A DNA stretch of 64,000 bases. It comes from Candidatus Lernaella stagnicola (GTDB lineage Bacteria > Lernaellota > Lernaellaia > Lernaellales > Lernaellaceae). Under the pieces are notes generated by a model. That model searched no databases, was not told where the DNA came from, and was given only the letters and a program-made list of their open reading frames with translations. Every line of letters begins with the position of its first letter. The stretch's first letter is position 1. The DNA is taken from the NCBI GenBank assembly GCA_030765525.1, contig JAVCCK010000010.1, positions 450,441 through 514,440 of the forward strand. The letters run 5' to 3'. Of the stretch, positions 1,130-11,208 are shown in pieces. Position numbers and translations under genes: made by a program.

Positions 1130-1669
1130 ATGCCTTTCGTAAAACACGCGTTATGGGCCTTCCTGGCTATTTTTCTGGTAAGCGCCATGTTTGTTGCTTG
1201 CGGCGGCGATGACGAGGATGAAGAAACCGGCACGGACGACGACGCCGACGATGATGATGACGCCGCTGATTGCGCCACGATGCCGGACATGGTCGTGGAC
1301 CGCTTCACGTTTTACGACACCAGCGGCTTTTTCGGCACGGACTTTTCTTTCACCGAGATCGTGATCTGTAACGTCGGCGGCGCGGCGGCGCCCGCGAATT
1401 CCGTTTTCGGGTTTTATCTGGTAGCCAATGCCGACTTCACCGGCGATTACTACATCGTTGCGAAATCCAGCCCGCTGGTGGGCTTCGTCCCCGGCGACTG
1501 CCTCACGTTCACCCTAAACGCCACCTCGAGCGAAGTGGCTGAAGGGTACTACTACGTGTACATCGTCGCCGACAGCCAGGACGACATCTCCGAGTGCAAC
1601 GAATCCAACAACTGGGCCCGCTCCGAGGAAGCCATCTACGCCAAACCCGACGAGACAGAACCGGTTTGA
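1130..1669 (+). CDS. lipoprotein with poly-Asp/Glu linker and CARDB-like beta-sandwich domain
   Basis: Signal peptide with lipobox (LVSAMFVAC). Acidic linker GGDDEDEETGTDDDADDDDD. CARDB-like C-terminal motifs (YYYVYIVADSQDDISECNESNN). Confidence 0.6.
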   Translation: MPFVKHALWAFLAIFLVSAMFVACGGDDEDEETGTDDDADDDDDAADCATMPDMVVDRFTFYDTSGFFGTDFSFTEIVICNVGGAAAPANSVFGFYLVANADFTGDYYIVAKSSPLVGFVPGDCLTFTLNATSSEVAEGYYYVYIVADSQDDISECNESNNWARSEEAIYAKPDETEPV

Positions 1670-1698
1670 GCTCGCGGTCGACCGCGAGCTCTATCTTT
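1668..1698 (+). terminator. intrinsic terminator candidate (24-bp perfect palindrome gagctcgcggtcgaccgcgagctc followed by tatcttt)
   Basis: Perfect GC-rich palindrome immediately after the TGA of the CARDB lipoprotein gene. Weak T tract. Confidence 0.4.
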
Positions 1699-1904
1699 CC
1701 AGCGACCGTCTAGTTAGCGGCGTTGCGATTATTTCGATATTGTGACCGCCACCGGCCAAAAGACCATGGAAATTTTCAAGCGTTACGACACGGTGTCGAA
1801 GAAAGACCTCAAAACCCTCACCGCCGCCGAAGAAAAAGGCGAAGTTGATCCATAGTCAGGTAAAGGACTATAAAACAAGGAAAACCTACCGCGAGGCGAA
1901 GGAC

Positions 1905-4900
1905 ATGCCGGGAGTTGAATTGAATCGCAGTTTTATTGACATCACGGATTCACATCAGGAACCCGACGTCCGGATGATGGCGAGTATCCTGCAGCAGCTG
2001 GACCGCGCTCTGAATTGGACTGGCGTGTTACAACACAAGTACGCTGTCATTCTTGGTGAAGCCCTATCCGGAAAGACGTGGGAGTTTCGGAGACAAACCG
2101 AGCGGATTAACAGTAACGGCGGTGACGCATTCTTTTTCCTTCTCCGATCTTTGGCAAACGGCGACTACGAAGTTGCCTTGAGCGGCCCAGAGGAAGGCGA
2201 AAAATTGGAGAAGTGGAAAAGCTCAAATGGCGAAGCTTATTTTTTCTTGGATTCGCTTGATGAAACGAAAATTGCAGGAAAGAGCCTGGACCTCGCATTA
2301 CGCCACTTCGAGAACCGACTCGGCGCCAGCATCAATCGAGCACGTGTCTACATTTCGAGTCGATTTTCGGATTGGAGGCCTAACGCCGATCTCGAAATAC
2401 TGAACGAATTTATAGAAAAAGTGGACAAAAAGAGTGACGGAATTGAAAACGACCAACATCAAAACGGCAACAGAGAATTCACCGCCCGAGTATTTCATCT
2501 TGGATGGTTGAACAATGAACAGATCCGGACAGTGGCTGAGTTCGAGACAAAGCGAGACGCGACAGGCTTCGCTGCGGCTGTGTACCGGGAAGGGGTTTCT
2601 GAACTCGTTGCCAGACCCGGGGACGTGCGATGGGCTGTACGCTTTTGGACAGAAAAAGGGCGCTTCGGCAGATATTCAGAAATAATTGAACACAATATCC
2701 AGCAGCGTCTTCAGGAACGAAGAGAGTTGGTTGAAAGCCTTTCGCCGCAAGAGTGTCAGGCGGCAGTCGAAGACTTAGCGCTCTTCGCGACTATGACGGG
2801 CTCCTTTTCTTTTCAAGTTCCTGATCATGGATCTTTTGCGGGAGAAATCGGGCAGCCGGTCAATGCGAGTGACATACTACAGTCTTGGAACAACGAAAAA
2901 ATTGGCCGGTTGTTGAGGCTGGCAATATTTGACGTGGCAACATACGGACAGGTGAAGTTCCACGTGCGTCCGGTTCAAGAGTATCTCGCGGCCATGTCGC
3001 TGAAGGCGAAGTTCTCCGATGGTGTGGGTCAGAAAGAGATCGAACGTCTTTTCTTCGTCCAGAGTTTTGGAGCGACCGTAGTGCCGCGGCACCTTCACGA
3101 AACAGCAGCTTGGTTGGCAATAAAGATCGATTGGTTTCGAGAGCAGCTGGCGGATATTGCACCGGAAATTTTGATTGACCTGGGAGACCCGTCTTCACTT
3201 CCGATAGATACAAAAAGAAAGCTCCTCCGAAAGTGGAATTTGAAAATGCGGGAGCGCCCATACCAATGGCAGTGGTTCGGCGTCCACTCGTTGCGCCGGT
3301 TTGCTTCCGAAGAACTCGTGCCGGAAATCAACGAAATGCTCCTTTCCGAGGAAACTCATCATCTTGCGAAACGAACCCTGTTGTCGTTGGCGGACGACGG
3401 TGGGCTTCAAGGAGCAGTGAAATCGTGCCTCGCATTGTTGAAAAACCGTCGTGAAAGGGAAATGCTAGGGGATTTGGCTTGTGACGCCGTTTGCGCCAAT
3501 GGAAGCCGCTCGGAGAAGAGGGAGCTTGTGGAAACCGTCCTCGGGTTCCAAAACGTGCAATATGCAATTTCAAACAGTGTTGCAAAGCGGTTATTTCCGG
3601 AAGTTCTGAAGCGAGAAGAATTGGTCGAAGTGATTAAAAAGACACGGCCTTTTCCGGATGAGAACACAACGACGTATTTCGAATTGTTTTTGGAAAACCA
3701 ACTCCCTGAAAAATGCGACGTAGAAACGGCTAAGTTTATCCTCAGGGAGTTCGTGTTCAAGGCCAAAGCCGATGCGGGAACTAATGAGCGATGGAGGCTA
3801 TGCCAGGAAGCGACAAGATGGACTGAGCGCATTGTGACTGGCTTGCTGGTAAAATTACTTGAAAACACAGAAAACACGGAGGAAATCGAAAACGCTCTGA
3901 TCGCATTTAGAAACGAAGACACGCACGTGAGTTCGAGAAGACAGGCCTTGTTCAAACGTGTGGCGGAGGCATTGAAAGCGAATGCCGGGTGCAGGAGAGC
4001 GTTGTTTTGGCGGAACGTCGCTCAGGTACCAGAATCTGAAAGGAGCGGCCCGCCATACTACCGCAATTTGAATTACCCGTTCAGAATCTTCCATTTGGAT
4101 GAGTGGGACACCGATTGGTTGCTAGAGGATGCGGCAAGAAAAGAAAAGCGTTTAGATCGCCTTGTGGCATTCGAACTTGCATTGTGTTTTCTCGGACGTG
4201 TCAAAAACCTGAAGGCCGACCCCCGCGTCGAGGAATTAAGAAGGCAACACGTGGAACTAGATGCGCGGTTTATGCGTTTTACGAACCCAAAGCCGTCTAA
4301 TAGTTTCATGAAGACGCCCAGTCAGCGAAAAATTGAAATGTACGAAAGGAGAGATAAGGCAAAGCGTGAGGCAATGAAGAGCAGAACTGCGGAAATCGAA
4401 AAAGCCGCCGATGAGGAAGCTCTCCAGGAGCTCTATATCTATTGCCTCCAGAGAGTCATAAAAACGCAACTTGGCATCTCCAATCTGCGTCCGGTCATCG
4501 AGGAATACGGCGAAGAAACAGCAAACGCCGTCAAAGAGGGCGCTAAACGTTTCTGGAGGAAGCACCCCGTTCAAAAATTGACGTGCGGTAGTGTCGGATT
4601 GGCGTTGACGGGCTTGCTGTTCGAATTCCTTGGCGGATTGGATTTCGCGAGCATGCCGGAACCGGATGTGGCCATTGCGACAGAGTTAGCTTTGGAAGAG
4701 AAAAACGAGTTCCCACCTTGGTTCGAGAATTTACTTGAAACAAGACCGGGAATCGTGAAACCGCTTGTATCGAGAAGCTTGGAGGAGGAATTCACCAAAC
4801 CCGAAGAAAGCCGCCCCCGGCGCCCAAATATCGAGAAAGTGCGTAAAGCTAGTTCAACCGTCCGATCAGTTTTTGAGGAGCAGATTTTCAATTTGTTGAA

Positions 4901-6044
4901 AACATCGGCGCCGCTTTCAACCGAAACACTGCAAAATGTCCTCGGAATCCTGGTTGATTCGGTTGAAGTGGACTGCGAAGACCTTTCAGCGAGGATTATT
5001 GTGCTTGCGAATGAATTCAGGCATTCACGAGATTCCTTTGTTCCTTTGTGGTGTGTGTTGTTTTGCGTAAGACCAAGTCATGCGATTGAAATGTGGGAAA
5101 GCATTAACTCAACTACCAGTGACGACGAAATCGACGATCTTAAACACGAAATATGTAAATTCCTGAGTTTCTGGTCCAATGGACTTTGGCCGACTGAGTT
5201 TCCCAGAAACGATGCGAAACAATTGGGGTTTCTGATTGCGGGGTTGCACCCCGATGATAAATCCACGAATGACGACTACTACGCGCGCCACTTTTTAAAC
5301 GACGTGGAAAAGTGGCTTTGGAACACGAATTCGGAAACGACTGTCGCAGTATTCCGCGAATTGTCGGAAAAGCCGTTGTTTCAGCATCGGAAGTATGAAT
5401 TCCTCAGGAGTGCAGAAACGAAAGCACGGGAAGTTGGGAGTTGTCGGCCGTTCAGCATGGCACAGGTGAGAGATTGGTTGGGCAAAAAGAGTTTCGAACC
5501 ACTTTTACCAGGCCAGCTTTTCCGAATCGCGAAGTGGCGAATAGAAGAGGCAAAAGCTGCAATTGAGAAAAACAGGTTCAGCCTTCGCAATGAACTCAGG
5601 GAAGGCGATGAAGCCGGATTCCAACGATGGTTGGCAAACGCCCTTGAAACGAACAGCCACGGCCATTTCTCTGTTGTGCGCGAAGAAGAGGTCGACCAGA
5701 GGAAGAAACCAGACATCCGCCTTCATTCGACCAGTTTCATGTCGCCGATCGGTATCGAAATGAAAATCGCGGACAATTGGACTGGGCCCAAATTGGCGGA
5801 GCGCCTAAGAAACCAACTAGTTGGTCAATATCTTTCTACACATGATGCTTTCTATGCGCTGTTCGTCGTCGCCTTCTTCGGACGGGGGAAAGAACGGTGG
5901 CAGATTAAAAGGGGGCACAATCTCGATTTCAGCGAACTGGTTGATGAACTCCGGGCGATCGCATCCGACATCGCAAAAGGAAATCCAGAAGTGTACGGTC
6001 TCGAGGTAATCGGAATCAATTTCCGGGATCCAAAAAAAGGTTAG
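1905..6044 (+). CDS. NACHT-type STAND NTPase (~1380 aa) with long alpha-helical middle region and C-terminal PD-(D/E)xK-like nuclease module
   Basis: Walker A AVILGEALSGKT. Walker B AYFFLDSLDE (NACHT-style DxxDE). Sensor RVYISSR. C-terminus carries ...EEEVDQRKKPDIRLHS-(12 aa)-IGIEMKIAD, i.e. PD...(D/E)xK spacing. Region 1700-6100 is markedly lower in GC than the flanks. ORF opens at TTG 1845; ATG 1905 (preceded by gaaggac) is taken as the start, which is uncertain. Confidence 0.7.
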   Translation: MPGVELNRSFIDITDSHQEPDVRMMASILQQLDRALNWTGVLQHKYAVILGEALSGKTWEFRRQTERINSNGGDAFFFLLRSLANGDYEVALSGPEEGEKLEKWKSSNGEAYFFLDSLDETKIAGKSLDLALRHFENRLGASINRARVYISSRFSDWRPNADLEILNEFIEKVDKKSDGIENDQHQNGNREFTARVFHLGWLNNEQIRTVAEFETKRDATGFAAAVYREGVSELVARPGDVRWAVRFWTEKGRFGRYSEIIEHNIQQRLQERRELVESLSPQECQAAVEDLALFATMTGSFSFQVPDHGSFAGEIGQPVNASDILQSWNNEKIGRLLRLAIFDVATYGQVKFHVRPVQEYLAAMSLKAKFSDGVGQKEIERLFFVQSFGATVVPRHLHETAAWLAIKIDWFREQLADIAPEILIDLGDPSSLPIDTKRKLLRKWNLKMRERPYQWQWFGVHSLRRFASEELVPEINEMLLSEETHHLAKRTLLSLADDGGLQGAVKSCLALLKNRREREMLGDLACDAVCANGSRSEKRELVETVLGFQNVQYAISNSVAKRLFPEVLKREELVEVIKKTRPFPDENTTTYFELFLENQLPEKCDVETAKFILREFVFKAKADAGTNERWRLCQEATRWTERIVTGLLVKLLENTENTEEIENALIAFRNEDTHVSSRRQALFKRVAEALKANAGCRRALFWRNVAQVPESERSGPPYYRNLNYPFRIFHLDEWDTDWLLEDAARKEKRLDRLVAFELALCFLGRVKNLKADPRVEELRRQHVELDARFMRFTNPKPSNSFMKTPSQRKIEMYERRDKAKREAMKSRTAEIEKAADEEALQELYIYCLQRVIKTQLGISNLRPVIEEYGEETANAVKEGAKRFWRKHPVQKLTCGSVGLALTGLLFEFLGGLDFASMPEPDVAIATELALEEKNEFPPWFENLLETRPGIVKPLVSRSLEEEFTKPEESRPRRPNIEKVRKASSTVRSVFEEQIFNLLKTSAPLSTETLQNVLGILVDSVEVDCEDLSARIIVLANEFRHSRDSFVPLWCVLFCVRPSHAIEMWESINSTTSDDEIDDLKHEICKFLSFWSNGLWPTEFPRNDAKQLGFLIAGLHPDDKSTNDDYYARHFLNDVEKWLWNTNSETTVAVFRELSEKPLFQHRKYEFLRSAETKAREVGSCRPFSMAQVRDWLGKKSFEPLLPGQLFRIAKWRIEEAKAAIEKNRFSLRNELREGDEAGFQRWLANALETNSHGHFSVVREEEVDQRKKPDIRLHSTSFMSPIGIEMKIADNWTGPKLAERLRNQLVGQYLSTHDAFYALFVVAFFGRGKERWQIKRGHNLDFSELVDELRAIASDIAKGNPEVYGLEVIGINFRDPKKG

Positions 6045-6145
6045 CCGCGCCTAAGAAAAACAGTGGACATCTATATGAACACCGGGGATTTTTCGGCACG
6101 AAAAAAGGGATCAGACCGAATCGCCTAACCCCTTGAAATCATTTG

Positions 6146-6230
6146 TGCCGGAGGTCGGAATCGAACCGACACGAGCGCAAGGCTCGCGGGATTTTGAGTC
6201 CCGTGCGTCTACCAATTTCACCACTCCGGC
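6146..6230 (-). tRNA. tRNA-Leu (anticodon CAA)
   Basis: Reverse complement GCCGGAGTGGTGAAATTGGTAGACGCACGGGACTCAAAATCCCGCGAGCCTTGCGCTCGTGTCGGTTCGATTCCGACCTCCGGCA folds as a class II tRNA with long variable arm. Anticodon loop CTCAAAA. CCA not encoded. Confidence 0.85.
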
Positions 6231-6283: not shown

Positions 6284-6356
<73 letters not shown>

Positions 6357-8473: not shown

Positions 8474-9982
8474 TCAACCGCTCTGATCTGAGGTCGAACT
8501 CTCGTCGAATTCTGGCTCCGTGGCGTCGGATTCGGTTGTGTTTTGTTGCGCCGTCGAGACGAGGCGTTCGGCGTATTCGCGCTCGTCGGCACCCTGATAA
8601 ATTGTCGTCAGTACTTCGGGAATCAGCGGCATATAGCGGGCGAAGTGTTTCGTTAAATGTAAGTCCACCGCCTCCAGAAGTTGCTCGGGTGAAGTGAAGC
8701 CGCTGACGATTTCCCGTTTGCGTTTTTTCCAATAGTTGTACTCGTCGTCTTCCAGAAAGCGAATCACGCCCGCCCAGAAAAGCAGTTTTTGGATGGCGTA
8801 GATGGTTTTCTGGGTCAGTTCGTAATGCGGCAAACCGGCCTTAGCCAGAAACTCTTCCGCGTAGGGTCCGAGTAGGTATTCCTCCAACTCGTATTGACTC
8901 ATGGGGTTGCCGGGGCCGTTGATCCGGCAGATTTCGGAAATCACGGGCTTGGCGATTTCGCGGTTATACAAGTAGATACGCGGCGACCACAACGTTCGCA
9001 AATAATCCCCCCGCCGGATGTCTTTCGGATCCTGCGGGTAATCTTGCGGGTCGTCGTGTTGGAAAGCAAAATTCGAGGGTTGATCGTGGTCGCGGTCCGT
9101 GATGGTGACAATGGAGTCGTCGCCGCTCTGGCCGTCATGGCCGGGAACGTGCCCGTCTTCGGTGGCGGCCGGTCGCTCCGCGCTCTCAGCCCCGGCCTTT
9201 AGCCCTTGGCCGGCAAGCAGTTCGATTTTCATTTCCTGGAAACGATCGTCGTAGGTCAGGCGCACCACATCCTTGCAGGCTTCGAGAAACTCGCGGAAGT
9301 TGGCGAAACCCAAGTCGGCCTCATCAAACGATGGAGCCAACTGGATCATCTGCCAACGCAGCCATCGGCCGACGGCCGGGCGATCGGTGAAGCGGTGGCG
9401 TTGCATGGCGCGGGCGAGCAGATCCTTGGCCTCCTGCATATCCATGTCGCCGACGGTTTCGCGCAGCAGGTGCGGATTTTCCGTGGCGATGGTGCGATAG
9501 AAGCGGAATAGGTTGCAGGCGCGCACGAGGTGATCGCTGGTGTGTTGGCGCGTGCCGATCCCCACGACTTTCTTGCCGTATTTGCGCAAATTGAGAATAA
9601 GGCCGGTATAGTCCGAGTCCGACGCGACGATCACGTAGGTTGTGATGGCCGGAAACGTAAATAGCGTTTCCATCGAGTCGGCGGTCAGACGGATATCAGC
9701 CGCATTTTTGCGCTGGGTGCCGCGTGTATAAATTTGGACGAGGTCGACGTTGTTCCCCAATAGATTGTACATATGAGGATTCACATAATGCCAGTTGGAG
9801 TAGGCTTTTTTGATGGCGACCCGTCCAATGTTTTGGTCGACGTACTCAAGAACCTTGCCGATTTGAAAGGGTTCTTCACCGGTCTCTTCGACGGTCAACC
9901 GCATGTTCTCAAAATCGATGAACACGGCAGCAGTTTCCTTGCCAGGGTTGAAGAGCAAAGGAGCCTCGGTGTCGTTAAACAT
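8474..9982 (-). CDS. NYN (LabA-like) ribonuclease-domain protein with C-terminal OST-HTH/LOTUS-like region
   Basis: NYN motifs VFIDFENM, KNAADIRLTADSMETL, VIVASDSDYTGL, GKKVVGIG. Basic/acidic C-terminal extension. Confidence 0.6.
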   Translation of the reverse strand: MFNDTEAPLLFNPGKETAAVFIDFENMRLTVEETGEEPFQIGKVLEYVDQNIGRVAIKKAYSNWHYVNPHMYNLLGNNVDLVQIYTRGTQRKNAADIRLTADSMETLFTFPAITTYVIVASDSDYTGLILNLRKYGKKVVGIGTRQHTSDHLVRACNLFRFYRTIATENPHLLRETVGDMDMQEAKDLLARAMQRHRFTDRPAVGRWLRWQMIQLAPSFDEADLGFANFREFLEACKDVVRLTYDDRFQEMKIELLAGQGLKAGAESAERPAATEDGHVPGHDGQSGDDSIVTITDRDHDQPSNFAFQHDDPQDYPQDPKDIRRGDYLRTLWSPRIYLYNREIAKPVISEICRINGPGNPMSQYELEEYLLGPYAEEFLAKAGLPHYELTQKTIYAIQKLLFWAGVIRFLEDDEYNYWKKRKREIVSGFTSPEQLLEAVDLHLTKHFARYMPLIPEVLTTIYQGADEREYAERLVSTAQQNTTESDATEPEFDESSTSDQSG

Positions 9983-10332
9983 GATTTCCTCTCCTTAAAA
10001 AATATTTAGAAAGAACAGATGCCCCGTGCCCTAACCTAAGACAAAACGAGAATCTGTCAATCCGATAAAAGCTCTTTTCGACAAGTTAGCGGAGGCCGGA
10101 GGAAAAGATCGGGAGGCGTCTTTTTTGTTTGTTTCTTATAGGTTACCGGTCAACGAGCGATAACCGGCGGCCCGAAAAGAGTATAAAGATAACTTCTCAA
10201 AGCCCGATGGGTGCACGAATAAGACGACGCATCGGCGATTAAATCTCACCGGACGATGGGGCAGGCACACTTCCTCAGCGAAGCGCAATAGGTCAATAAT
10301 AGCATAGAATATACCACTAATGAAATAATGCG

Positions 10333-10362
10333 TTGACAAATACCCCATTACTGAAATATAAG
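10333..10362 (+). promoter_or_regulatory. sigma70-like promoter candidate (TTGACA-18-TATAAG) upstream of the ABC transporter operon
   Basis: cgTTGACAaataccccattactgaaaTATAAGc lies ~50 nt upstream of the permease start. Confidence 0.35.
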
Positions 10363-10410
10363 CATGCATGTAGTGAATGTTACCCTCTGTTTTTAACATC
10401 GAAGGGCGGG

Positions 10411-11208
10411 ATGCGTTTGCAGCTTGTAAGAACAGCGGGACGTCGGGCGATCGGCTATTTCGTTGCCGCCGCCGCCCTTGGATTTTTCGTGTTGATCTCC
10501 GAGGTCGCGCTCAAGTATTTCGAAGTACCAGTCTACCTGCTGCCGCGACCCAGCCAAGTAATCAACGAAATCATTCAACATTTCGGTTACTACCTGACGC
10601 AGACCAGCGTTACGATGCTCGAGGCTGCCTCCGGCTTCCTGGTTGGCAATACAATCGCGTACGGTTTGGCGCTGTTTTTTGTACGCTTTCCCTCTGTGGA
10701 GAAAATGGGGCTGGCGGCGGCGGTCGCGGTGAAATCGACGCCCATCGTCGTTCTGGCGCCGCTGTTTATCATCTGGTTCGGCAACGGCTTGTTCGGCAAA
10801 TGCCTGATGGCTGCACTGATCTGCTTCTTTCCCATGCTGGTGAACTCCACGGTCGGATTGCGCTCGGTCGACCCGGATATTCTGAATTACCTGCGCAGTT
10901 TGGGTGCGACACCAACGCAGACTTTGCTCAAGGTGCGTATCCAAACCTCGTTGCCCTATGCGCTTGCCGCGGCCAAAGCCTCATCGACGATCTCGATAGT
11001 CGGGGCGATTGTCGCCGAATTGGCCGGGTCCGACGCCGGGGTCGGCTACATTTTCCTCATGTCTATCTATCGCCTGGAAACGGAAAAAATGTTCGCGGCC
11101 ATTGCCTTCGTGGCGATAGCCGGCGTTTTGTTTTACAGCTTGGTCAGTTTGCCGACACGAGTCTTGAGCCGACACGGTTGGGGTGATTACACAGCACGAA
11201 TGAGTTAA
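10411..11208 (+). CDS. ABC transporter permease, NitT/TauT (SsuC/TauC-like) family
   Basis: Six predicted TM segments. BPD_transp_1-like EAA-type loop (AASGFLVGNTIAYGLALFF...). ATG 10411 with GAAGGGCGGG upstream. Longer upstream ORF frame discounted. Confidence 0.7.
   Translation: MRLQLVRTAGRRAIGYFVAAAALGFFVLISEVALKYFEVPVYLLPRPSQVINEIIQHFGYYLTQTSVTMLEAASGFLVGNTIAYGLALFFVRFPSVEKMGLAAAVAVKSTPIVVLAPLFIIWFGNGLFGKCLMAALICFFPMLVNSTVGLRSVDPDILNYLRSLGATPTQTLLKVRIQTSLPYALAAAKASSTISIVGAIVAELAGSDAGVGYIFLMSIYRLETEKMFAAIAFVAIAGVLFYSLVSLPTRVLSRHGWGDYTARMS

What the first reader, a model, noticed from the sequence alone, without database searches (positions are those of the whole stretch)
1700..6145. Single-gene low-GC island encoding an NLR-like NACHT NTPase with a C-terminal PD-(D/E)xK nuclease-like module
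A ~4.4 kb block of clearly lower GC sits between high-GC housekeeping genes and two tRNA genes, and carries one ~1380-aa protein. The N-terminus carries all core NACHT motifs (GEALSGKT, FFLDSLDE, ISSR). It is followed by ~1000 aa of helical sensor-like sequence, and ends with a PD...(D/E)xK-patterned segment (KKPDIRLHS...IGIEMKIAD). The order NTPase, sensor, C-terminal nuclease is the reverse of the common effector-NTPase-sensor layout of Avs/bNACHT defence proteins. The layout fits a compositionally foreign, self-contained NLR-like antiphage or abortive-infection module of an uncommon architecture.
Basis: partly seen in the sequence, partly recalled or inferred. Interest (0 to 1): 0.85.

Follow-up and report, generated by a model that had tools for sequence, protein, structure and literature searches.

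The report
Divergent Hypnos/Avs10 antiphage NLR-like nuclease
This low-GC, single-gene island encodes a bacterial NLR-like immune protein (NACHT ATPase, helical sensor, C-terminal DNA-cutting domain), but it belongs to an antiphage family already described as Hypnos/Erebus/bNACHT64 (Avs10), so it is a new distant member, not a new kind of system.

Summary
One intact 1379-aa ORF (1905-6044, +) fills the lowest-GC 4.1 kb of the window: 49.5% GC against 59.8% elsewhere, and GC3 of 54% against 69-75% in neighbouring genes. It lies between a CARDB-domain gene and tRNA-Leu/tRNA-Ala.

The domain calls also hold.
- Residues 1-440 carry the invariant Walker A, the NACHT-specific D[GAS]hDE Walker B and the sensor-1 arginine. 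The AlphaFold2 model (pLDDT 87.8) matches animal NLR NACHT modules first.
- Residues 1231-1379 fold (pLDDT 88.4) as a restriction-endonuclease-like core with an invariant E...D...ExK...Q set.
- The roughly 700 residues between them are the least conserved part (15-18% identity), as expected for a sensor.

The architecture is not new. NCBIfam's "NACHT domain-containing antiphage protein HyoA" model matches end to end (E=1e-237), although below its equivalog cut-off. I read HyoA as Hypnos and EruA as Erebus. A 2026 Nature paper groups Erebus/Hypnos/bNACHT64 as Avs10, a STAND family triggered by phage major capsid protein. The family is large: 516 loci across many phyla, and at least 1365 clusters at 50% identity.

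Verdict: a divergent new member (28% identity or less to any relative) of a known family, in the candidate phylum Lernaellota. Interest is low.

The parts
1668..1691 (+). Terminator-like perfect palindrome straight after the stop of the upstream CARDB gene. It marks the left edge of the low-GC block.
   Evidence: (I14)
1692..1904 (+). Upstream non-coding leader of the island. GC is already falling here. No convincing sigma-70 promoter was found. GAGG lies 8 nt before the ATG.
1905..6044 (+). Single CDS of 1379 aa plus stop: a HyoA (Hypnos)/Avs10-family NLR-like antiphage protein.
1905..3224 (+). NACHT module (aa 1-440): short N-terminal signature (R8, F10, W38), NBD, helical and winged-helix subdomains. 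There is no N-terminal effector domain.
   Evidence: AF2 pLDDT 87.8, pTM 0.85. Foldseek against PDB: NOD2 at 1.8e-9, then NLRP2, NLRC4, NLRP3 and NAIP5, then Avs4 at 1.7e-5.
2055..2078 (+). Walker A / P-loop GEALSGKT (aa 51-58). G56 and K57 are invariant in the family.
2241..2264 (+). Walker B FFLDSLDE (aa 113-120). D-S-L-D-E matches the NACHT-specific D[GAS]hDE signature. D116 and E120 are invariant.
2352..2363 (+). ISSR (aa 150-153). The sensor-1-like arginine R153 is invariant.
3225..5321 (+). Middle region (aa 441-1139), the presumed helical-repeat (HEAT/TPR-like) sensor. It is the least conserved part: 15-18% identity to homologues, against 28-32% for the NTPase and the nuclease.
   Evidence: Weak HEAT_2 hits in 3 of 31 homologues. 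Weak TOG/HEAT match with the family profile. The structure was not modelled here, so this is an inference.
5322..5594 (+). Helical linker preceding the nuclease (aa 1140-1230).
   Evidence: AF2 model, helices 5-91 of the 240-residue model
5595..6041 (+). C-terminal PD-(D/E)xK nuclease domain (aa 1231-1379) with alpha-beta-beta-beta-alpha-beta core. E1236, E1260, D1270, E1285, K1287, Q1304 and Y1309 are invariant.
5703..5729 (+). 'PD' motif KKPDIRLHS (aa 1267-1275). D1270 lies at the start of core strand 2.
5748..5774 (+). 'ExK' motif IGIEMKIAD (aa 1282-1290). E1285 and K1287 lie on core strand 3.
6105..6134 (-). Terminator-like hairpin plus T-run after the 3' end of tRNA-Leu. It marks the right edge of the foreign block.
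6145..6230 (-). tRNA-Leu(CAA), convergent with the CDS. Its 3' end lies 100 nt from the stop codon.
6284..6356 (-). tRNA-Ala(GGC).

Best explanation
The block is a horizontally acquired single-gene antiphage system: a divergent member of the Hypnos (HyoA) / Erebus / bNACHT64 family, now called Avs10.

Proposed mechanism:
1. The protein rests as an autoinhibited monomer.
2. Its roughly 700-residue helical middle region binds a phage protein. In characterised family members this is the HK97-fold major capsid protein.
3. Binding releases the N-terminal NACHT NTPase, which binds ATP and oligomerises.
4. Oligomerisation brings the C-terminal PD-(D/E)xK domains together into an active nuclease.
5. 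The nuclease degrades DNA and aborts the infection.

Shown here: the domain identities and their order, conservation of all NTPase and nuclease catalytic residues, full-length homology to the HyoA family, foreign base composition, and the absence of partner genes.

Taken from the literature on relatives: antiphage activity, the capsid-protein trigger, and dependence on the effector domain.

Inferred: that this distant member keeps the same trigger, and that activation works by oligomerisation.
For: - Family match. NCBIfam NF058534 'NACHT domain-containing antiphage protein HyoA' matches at E=1.1e-237 (792 bits), aligned over aa 6-1374 to model positions 1-1428 of 1430. The sibling EruA model matches at 2e-40. 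Homologues P0021, P0042 and P0051 pass the HyoA cut-off.
- Conservation. Walker A, Walker B, R153 and E/D/ExK/Q are all invariant in 31 homologues.
- N-terminal fold. The N-terminal model (pLDDT 87.8) hits NOD2, NLRC4 and NLRP3 NACHT modules first.
- C-terminal fold. The C-terminal model (pLDDT 88.4) hits restriction endonucleases and other PD-(D/E)xK nucleases.
- Sensor-like divergence. The middle region is 15-18% identical, against about 30% for the enzymatic domains.
- Literature. PMC13581612 and PMC12803255 state that Avs10 (Erebus/Hypnos/bNACHT64) senses the major capsid protein, binds its A-domain, and that effector mutations abolish cell death. Hypnos and Erebus are used as defence-system names, and a phage inhibitor of Hypnos is reported.
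- Context. The E. coli homologue sits in a tRNA-Asn integrase island next to a Gabija-like gene pair (an ATP-dependent nuclease with OLD-type TOPRIM domain, then a UvrD helicase) and a JetD/MukBE (Wadjet-like) cluster.
- Composition. GC is 49.5% against 59.8%. Homologues have lower GC than their flanks in 47 of 51 loci.
- Intactness. The same 1379-aa gene call occurs in an independent assembly.
Against: - The score (792 bits) is below NCBIfam's equivalog cut-off of 1200, and the best relative among 5.8 billion proteins is only 27-28% identical. Functional equivalence, especially of the trigger, is therefore not assured.
- The sensor region is the most diverged part.
- The window protein gave no hit in Pfam, PADLOC 2023 or PDB sequences. 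PADLOC also misses bona fide HyoA, so that negative result carries no weight.
- Equating HyoA with Hypnos and EruA with Erebus is my inference from the names and the shared description. The naming paper (van den Berg 2024) and Kibby 2023 were not readable here.
- There is no experiment on this protein.
- The middle region was not modelled.
Confidence: 0.8

Rival explanations
1. Same family and same effector logic, but a different trigger. This deep-branching protein senses something other than the HK97-fold capsid protein, such as another phage protein or a host perturbation.
For: The sensor region is only 15-18% identical to the family. The score is below the HyoA equivalog cut-off. The host is from a candidate phylum whose phages are unknown. 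Other bNACHT and Avs proteins use varied triggers (abstracts listed).
Against: [quoted passage not shown] The protein is collinear with HyoA along its whole length, including the middle.
Confidence: 0.25
2. An NTP-dependent restriction-like enzyme, in the manner of McrBC or Mrr. The nuclease domain itself recognises foreign or modified DNA and the NTPase powers cleavage, with no protein sensing.
For: The C-terminal fold resembles type II, IIS and ISP restriction nucleases and McrC. One homologue gives a weak HSDR_N hit.
Against: The NTPase is a NACHT/STAND switch rather than a translocase or GTPase motor. Family members are triggered by expression of a phage protein alone. No methyltransferase or specificity partner lies nearby.
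Confidence: 0.05
3. A decaying or inactive relic of a horizontally acquired gene with no current function.
For: The island has no mobility genes or att repeats. No convincing promoter was found.
Against: The 4.1-kb ORF is intact. All 29 family-invariant positions are retained. An identical copy occurs in a second assembly. Both models are confident.
Confidence: 0.05
4. A non-immune STAND protein, such as a signalling or transcription regulator, that happens to carry a nuclease-like domain.
For: STAND NTPases include regulators. Here the neighbours are ordinary chromosomal genes and this is not a defence island.
Against: The catalytic nuclease residues are strictly conserved. The protein has full-length homology to a named antiphage family. 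Homologues sit in defence islands. Foreign composition is seen across the family.
Confidence: 0.03

Closest known systems
Hypnos (HyoA; NCBIfam NF058534), part of Avs10 (Erebus/Hypnos/bNACHT64). Sources: van den Berg et al. 2024 Cell Host Microbe 32:1427; Kibby et al. 2023 Cell 186:2410; PMC13581612 (Nature 2026).
   Same: Collinear over the full length (aa 6-1374 against model positions 1-1428 of 1430). Same order: NACHT, long helical region, C-terminal PD-(D/E)xK. All invariant residues are kept. It is a single-gene system with low GC relative to its flanks.
   Different: Only 18-28% identical to any member. The 792 bits fall below the 1200-bit equivalog cut-off. It is about 50-100 aa shorter than typical members (1379 against 1420-1480 aa). 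The host belongs to the candidate phylum Lernaellota. The trigger is untested.
Erebus (EruA; NCBIfam NF058535)
   Same: Sibling NACHT antiphage family that cross-hits the same proteins. It is grouped with Hypnos as Avs10.
   Different: A much weaker match: 139 bits against a cut-off of 1000, covering aa 111-1315. The window protein is on the Hypnos side.
Canonical Avs1-5/Avs7 and most bNACHT proteins (N-terminal effector, central STAND NTPase, C-terminal sensor)
   Same: STAND NTPase switch, helical-repeat sensor, often a PD-(D/E)xK (Cap4/Mrr-type) nuclease effector, and protein-fold sensing that leads to abortive infection.
   Different: The effector is at the C-terminus, after the sensor, and nothing precedes the NACHT apart from about 40 residues. 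The NTPase is NACHT-clade: animal NLRs score E of about 1e-9, against Avs4 at 1.7e-5.
Animal NLRs (NOD2, NLRC4, NLRP3, NAIP5)
   Same: These are the best structural matches for the NACHT module. They share the D[GAS]hDE Walker B and the sensor-1 arginine.
   Different: No CARD, PYD or BIR domain and no LRR. The effector is an in-cis nuclease rather than an adaptor domain. Sequence identity is 12-17%.
PD-(D/E)xK nucleases (BamHI/BglII/OkrAI-like type II enzymes, CdiA-CT EC869 DNase, Can2/Card1, NucS, SfsA)
   Same: Shared core fold and the E...D...ExK catalytic pattern.

Membership tests
Hypnos/HyoA (NCBIfam NF058534) = Avs10 | Significant, end-to-end match to the family HMM | tested here: met
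   E=1.1e-237. Aa 6-1374 align to model positions 1-1428 of 1430.
Hypnos/HyoA (NCBIfam NF058534) = Avs10 | Score at or above the curated equivalog cut-off (1200 bits) | tested here: not met
   792 bits. Homologues P0021, P0042 and P0051 pass it, while P0002, P0016 and P0035 do not. The protein is therefore a family homologue, not a certified equivalog.
Hypnos/HyoA (NCBIfam NF058534) = Avs10 | Architecture: N-terminal NACHT, long helical region, C-terminal PD-(D/E)xK nuclease, in a single gene | tested here: met
   No partner genes.
Hypnos/HyoA (NCBIfam NF058534) = Avs10 | Protects against phage; cell death depends on the effector | not testable with these tools
   Known only for relatives.
Hypnos/HyoA (NCBIfam NF058534) = Avs10 | Triggered by the HK97-fold major capsid protein | not testable with these tools
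   Reported for tested Avs10 homologues. No complex modelling was available here, and the sensor is only 15-18% identical.
Erebus/EruA (NCBIfam NF058535) | Score at or above the curated cut-off (1000 bits) | tested here: not met
   138.8 bits.
NACHT clade of STAND NTPases | Walker A GxxxxGK[ST] | tested here: met
   GEALSGKT at aa 51-58. G56 and K57 are invariant.
NACHT clade of STAND NTPases | D[GAS]hDE Walker B signature (Koonin & Aravind 2000, as quoted by Kibby et al.) | tested here: met
   D116-S-L-D-E120. The family shows DS[VLI]DE or DAVDE.
NACHT clade of STAND NTPases | NBD, helical and winged-helix fold closest to known NACHT modules | tested here: met
   The Foldseek top 37 hits are NOD2, NLRP, NLRC4 and NAIP (E 1.8e-9 to 1e-5), ahead of Avs4, ORC/Cdc6 and a plant NLR.
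NACHT clade of STAND NTPases | Match to Pfam NACHT (PF05729) | tested here: not met
   No Pfam hit for the window protein at E<=1. Only 5 of 31 homologues give weak NACHT hits (best 1e-4), and 7 of 31 hit nSTAND3 or nSTAND5.
PD-(D/E)xK nuclease superfamily | alpha-beta-beta-beta-alpha-beta core fold | tested here: met
PD-(D/E)xK nuclease superfamily | Conserved acidic/Lys catalytic set on strands 2 and 3 | tested here: met
   D1270, E1285 and K1287 are invariant in 31 sequences, as are E1236, E1260 and Q1304. The 3D geometry of the side chains was not measured.
Canonical Avs/bNACHT layout (N-terminal effector) | Effector domain N-terminal to the NTPase | tested here: not met
   Only about 40 residues precede the P-loop strand. 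The nuclease is C-terminal.
tRNA-targeted integrative island | Integrase plus direct repeat of the tRNA 3' end | tested here: not met
   No integrase and no repeat of 13 nt or more of the tRNA-Leu 3' part.

The most novel reading that the evidence does not exclude
This protein represents a deep, separate lineage of the Hypnos/Avs10 family. It is 28% identical or less to any of about 5.8 billion proteins, scores below the equivalog cut-off, and comes from the candidate phylum Lernaellota. Its strongly diverged sensor may recognise a different phage component than the HK97 capsid protein, which would extend the trigger range of the NACHT-sensor-nuclease architecture.
Probability: 0.2. Interest if true: 0.4.

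Novelty: new member of a known kind. Interest (0 to 1): 0.2.

Why it matters
Little changes for the field. The case shows that a reader working from raw sequence alone can correctly call an NLR-like defence gene and its catalytic motifs. It also adds a very divergent Avs10/Hypnos homologue from an uncultured candidate phylum (Lernaellota).

The sequence could be useful as an outgroup for studying how the capsid-sensing region evolves, and for annotation, since the gene is currently labelled 'hypothetical protein'. It does not reveal a new architecture or mechanism.

Tried and rejected
- Direct scans of the window protein against Pfam, PADLOC-DB 2023 and PDB sequences returned nothing. The PADLOC negative is uninformative, because bona fide HyoA (P0051) also gives no hit.
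- Family-profile searches against PDB sequences gave only chance-level hits.
- Literature searches for 'HyoA', 'EruA', 'Hyo' and 'Eru' found nothing relevant. The link emerged only after I read the symbols as Hypnos and Erebus.
- Kibby 2023 (PMC10294775) and van den Berg 2024 could not be opened. The 2022 bNACHT preprint does not mention bNACHT64. DefensePredictor does not name the family. No supplementary tables were held.
- A classic tRNA-integrated element was rejected: there is no integrase and no att-like repeat. The 14-nt imperfect repeat flanking the ORF (1825-1838 and 6048-6061, 86%) is probably chance.
- The search for an 'empty site' in relatives was inconclusive. The only syntenic metagenome contig (L085) keeps NYN-SurA-tRNA-Ala and then diverges, with just 1 kb of sequence left.
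- A phage-borne origin is unsupported: only 4 relatives were found in 2.9 million viral contigs.
- The antisense ORFs inside the gene are treated as by-products of the long ORF.

Full report

Yes. The mechanical ORF runs 1845-6044 on the + strand. Its first ATG is at 1905 and gives a 1379-aa product. An independent ENA metagenome contig carries an identical 1379-aa gene call, and homologue alignments begin at residues 4-6.

GC over 1905-6044 is 49.5%, against 59.8% for the rest of the window. No other 4.14-kb stretch of the 64 kb is lower (0.25th percentile, about 3 SD below the mean). Third-position GC is 54%, against 69-75% in the four neighbouring genes.

The block is bracketed by two terminator-like hairpins:
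- on the left, a perfect 24-nt palindrome directly after the stop of a CARDB-domain gene (1668-1691);
- on the right, a hairpin at 6134-6105 that follows the 3' end of tRNA-Leu(CAA) (6145-6230, minus strand). tRNA-Ala(GGC) lies at 6284-6356.

Beyond these lie ordinary chromosomal genes: a SurA-like PPIase, a NYN/LOTUS protein, an NMT1-like binding protein, an ABC ATPase, an aldehyde dehydrogenase and TruA. None of the five nearest neighbouring ORFs tested hits a PADLOC defence model. The 'single-gene low-GC island' description is therefore accurate.

**2. What is the protein?**

Direct scans against Pfam, PADLOC-DB 2023 and PDB sequences gave nothing. NCBIfam gave a full-length match to NF058534, 'NACHT domain-containing antiphage protein HyoA'. 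The match has E=1.1e-237 and 792 bits, with aa 6-1374 aligned to model positions 1-1428 of 1430. A weaker match went to the sibling model NF058535, EruA. The score is below the 1200-bit equivalog cut-off.

A search of 5.8 billion proteins found the exact sequence once. It is annotated 'hypothetical protein' in a MAG of Candidatus Lernaella stagnicola, candidate phylum Lernaellota. It also found 65 relatives, mostly 1420-1480 aa long, none more than 27% identical over the full length. Some of these pass the HyoA cut-off: P0021 from Bradyrhizobium, P0042, and P0051 from a Rhodanobacteraceae bacterium.

**3. Domain tests**

I aligned the window protein with 30 relatives that are 18-27% identical to it. 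Twenty-nine columns are invariant. They include:
- G56 and K57 (Walker A, GEALSGKT);
- D116 and E120 (Walker B, FFLDSLDE);
- R153 (ISSR);
- at the C-terminus, E1236, E1260, D1270 (KKPDIRL), E1285 and K1287 (IEMK), Q1304 and Y1309.

D-S-L-D-E fits the D[GAS]hDE signature that separates NACHT from other STAND NTPases, as quoted in the bNACHT preprint.

N-terminus. An AlphaFold2 model of residues 1-480 reached mean pLDDT 87.8 and pTM 0.85. Its 37 best Foldseek hits in the PDB are all animal NLR NACHT modules: NOD2 at 1.8e-9, then NLRP2, NLRC4, NLRP3 and NAIP5. Avs4, ORC/Cdc6 and a plant NLR come only afterwards. Only about 40 residues precede the P-loop strand, so there is no N-terminal effector domain.

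Middle. This region is the least conserved part, at 15-18% identity to relatives against 28-32% for the NTPase and 30% for the nuclease. It is rich in Leu, Glu, Arg and Ala. There are only weak HEAT signals: Pfam HEAT_2 in 3 of 31 relatives, and a TOG-domain match at E=0.09. Calling it a helical-repeat sensor is therefore an inference. It agrees with the published description of TPR-like Avs sensors.

**4. What is known about the family?**

Searching for the gene symbols found nothing. I read HyoA as Hypnos and EruA as Erebus, and that search found the link. A 2026 preprint and its Nature version (PMC12803255, PMC13581612) define 'Avs10 (Erebus/Hypnos/bNACHT64)'. According to these papers:
- Avs10 is one of three STAND families that sense the phage major capsid protein;
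- it is modelled as binding the penton- and hexon-forming interface of the capsid A-domain;

The equations HyoA = Hypnos and EruA = Erebus remain my inference, though a strong one. They rest on three points. Both NCBIfam models are described as NACHT antiphage proteins, they cross-hit the same proteins, and the literature groups Hypnos and Erebus into one family.

**5. How large and how mobile is the family?**

A single back-translated pattern recovered 516 loci among species-representative genomes. They span Desulfobacterota, Myxococcota, Planctomycetota, Alpha- and Gammaproteobacteria, Cyanobacteria, Bacteroidota, Acidobacteriota, Nitrospinota and others.

A profile of the C-terminal region found 1365 clusters at 50% identity with E<=1e-30 and 2000 with E<=1e-10. 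The domain always sits at the C-terminal end of proteins of about 1420-1480 aa, or of shorter proteins, many probably fragments. Only 4 relatives occur in 2.9 million viral contigs.

In 47 of 51 loci with long flanks the gene has lower GC than its surroundings, by a median of 5.4 points. The compositional anomaly seen here is therefore a property of the whole family.

The E. coli homologue (P0035) lies in a tRNA-Asn integrase island. Its neighbours are a RelE/HTH toxin-antitoxin pair, a Gabija-like pair (an ATP-dependent nuclease with OLD-type TOPRIM domain, then a UvrD helicase) and a JetD/MukBE (Wadjet-like) cluster. It is still annotated 'hypothetical protein'.

In the window there is no integrase and no att-like repeat. 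The one syntenic metagenome relative keeps NYN-SurA-tRNA-Ala and then diverges, but too little sequence remains to define an empty site.

**6. Mechanism**

The best-supported model has five steps:
1. The monomer is autoinhibited.
2. The helical middle region binds a phage protein, the major capsid protein by analogy with relatives.
3. The NACHT module binds ATP and oligomerises.
4. The C-terminal PD-(D/E)xK domains are brought together and become active.
5. DNA is degraded and the infection aborts.

Shown here: domain identity and order, catalytic-residue conservation, family membership at the homology level, foreign composition and single-gene organisation. Imported from relatives: antiphage activity, the capsid trigger and effector dependence. 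Inferred: that this 28%-or-less-identical member keeps the same trigger, and the oligomerisation step.

The rivals, from most to least likely, are the same architecture with a different trigger, a restriction-like DNA-sensing enzyme, an inactive relic, and a non-immune STAND protein.

**7. Verdict**

The architecture it flagged as uncommon, however, is the defining layout of a named, validated and widespread family that has an NCBIfam model. This is a divergent new member of a known kind. Its modest value lies in annotation and in evolutionary sampling of the sensor region. Interest is 0.2.

Noticed in passing
L015 12367-12442, L019 12483-12571, L077 12398-12485, L051 12932-13007; window 6145-6230: In 4 of 51 homologue loci a tRNA gene on the opposite strand lies 82-713 nt downstream of the stop codon with its 3' end facing the gene, exactly as in the window (100 nt). 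No repeat of the tRNA 3' end (13 nt or more) is present in any of them. This looks enriched over chance, by a rough estimate of about 1% expected, but no mobility mechanism is visible.
   Followed up: partly
51 loci (L004-L082): Hypnos-family genes have lower GC than their 8-kb flanks in 47 of 51 genomes (median -5.4 points, down to -20). This holds across hosts whose GC ranges from 39% to 71%.
   Followed up: partly
L001 / L003 (E. coli DETEC-P881, NZ_CP116100.1 154158-176826): The E. coli homologue sits in a tRNA-Asn integrase island with a RelE/HTH toxin-antitoxin pair, a Gabija-like pair (ATP-dependent nuclease with OLD-type TOPRIM domain plus UvrD helicase) and a JetD/MukBE (Wadjet-like) cluster. 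RefSeq still calls it 'hypothetical protein'.
   Followed up: partly
window 8474-9982 (-) and 9750-10500: A 502-aa NYN ribonuclease-domain protein with an OST-HTH/LOTUS domain lies next to the SurA-like gene. A second low-GC dip (46-47%) covers its 5' end and the upstream intergenic region. The NYN-SurA-tRNA-Ala order is conserved in a distant metagenome relative (L085: 62% and 51% aa identity).
   Followed up: partly
window 1668-1691: A perfect 12+12-nt palindrome (GAGCTCGCGGTC/GACCGCGAGCTC) overlaps the stop codon of the CARDB gene (the last two bases of the TGA at 1667-1669 begin the palindrome) and is followed by a T-rich tail. It is probably the terminator of that gene and the left border of the foreign DNA.
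   Followed up: partly
window 1766-1855 (+): A 29-codon ATG ORF (MEIFKRYDTVSKKDLKTLTAAEEKGEVDP) lies in the leader upstream of the main gene, in a different frame. It was not tested properly: my one tblastn attempt used the wrong frame.
   Followed up: no
window 1825-1838 and 6048-6061: An imperfect 14-nt direct repeat (CGCCGAAGAAAAAG / CGCCTAAGAAAAAC, 86%) lies on either side of the ORF. It is probably chance.
   Followed up: no
PADLOC-DB v2.0.0: The 2023 PADLOC model set has no model for this family. Even proteins passing NCBIfam's HyoA cut-off give no hit, so PADLOC-based screens of that version would miss Hypnos/Avs10 genes.
   Followed up: yes
Genome-contig scan and L084: No 100%-identical locus was returned from the species-representative genome collection, so the source MAG (or this gene) is not in that set. 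The identical gene and its neighbours do occur on a 9-kb ENA metagenome contig (ERZ27315835).
   Followed up: partly
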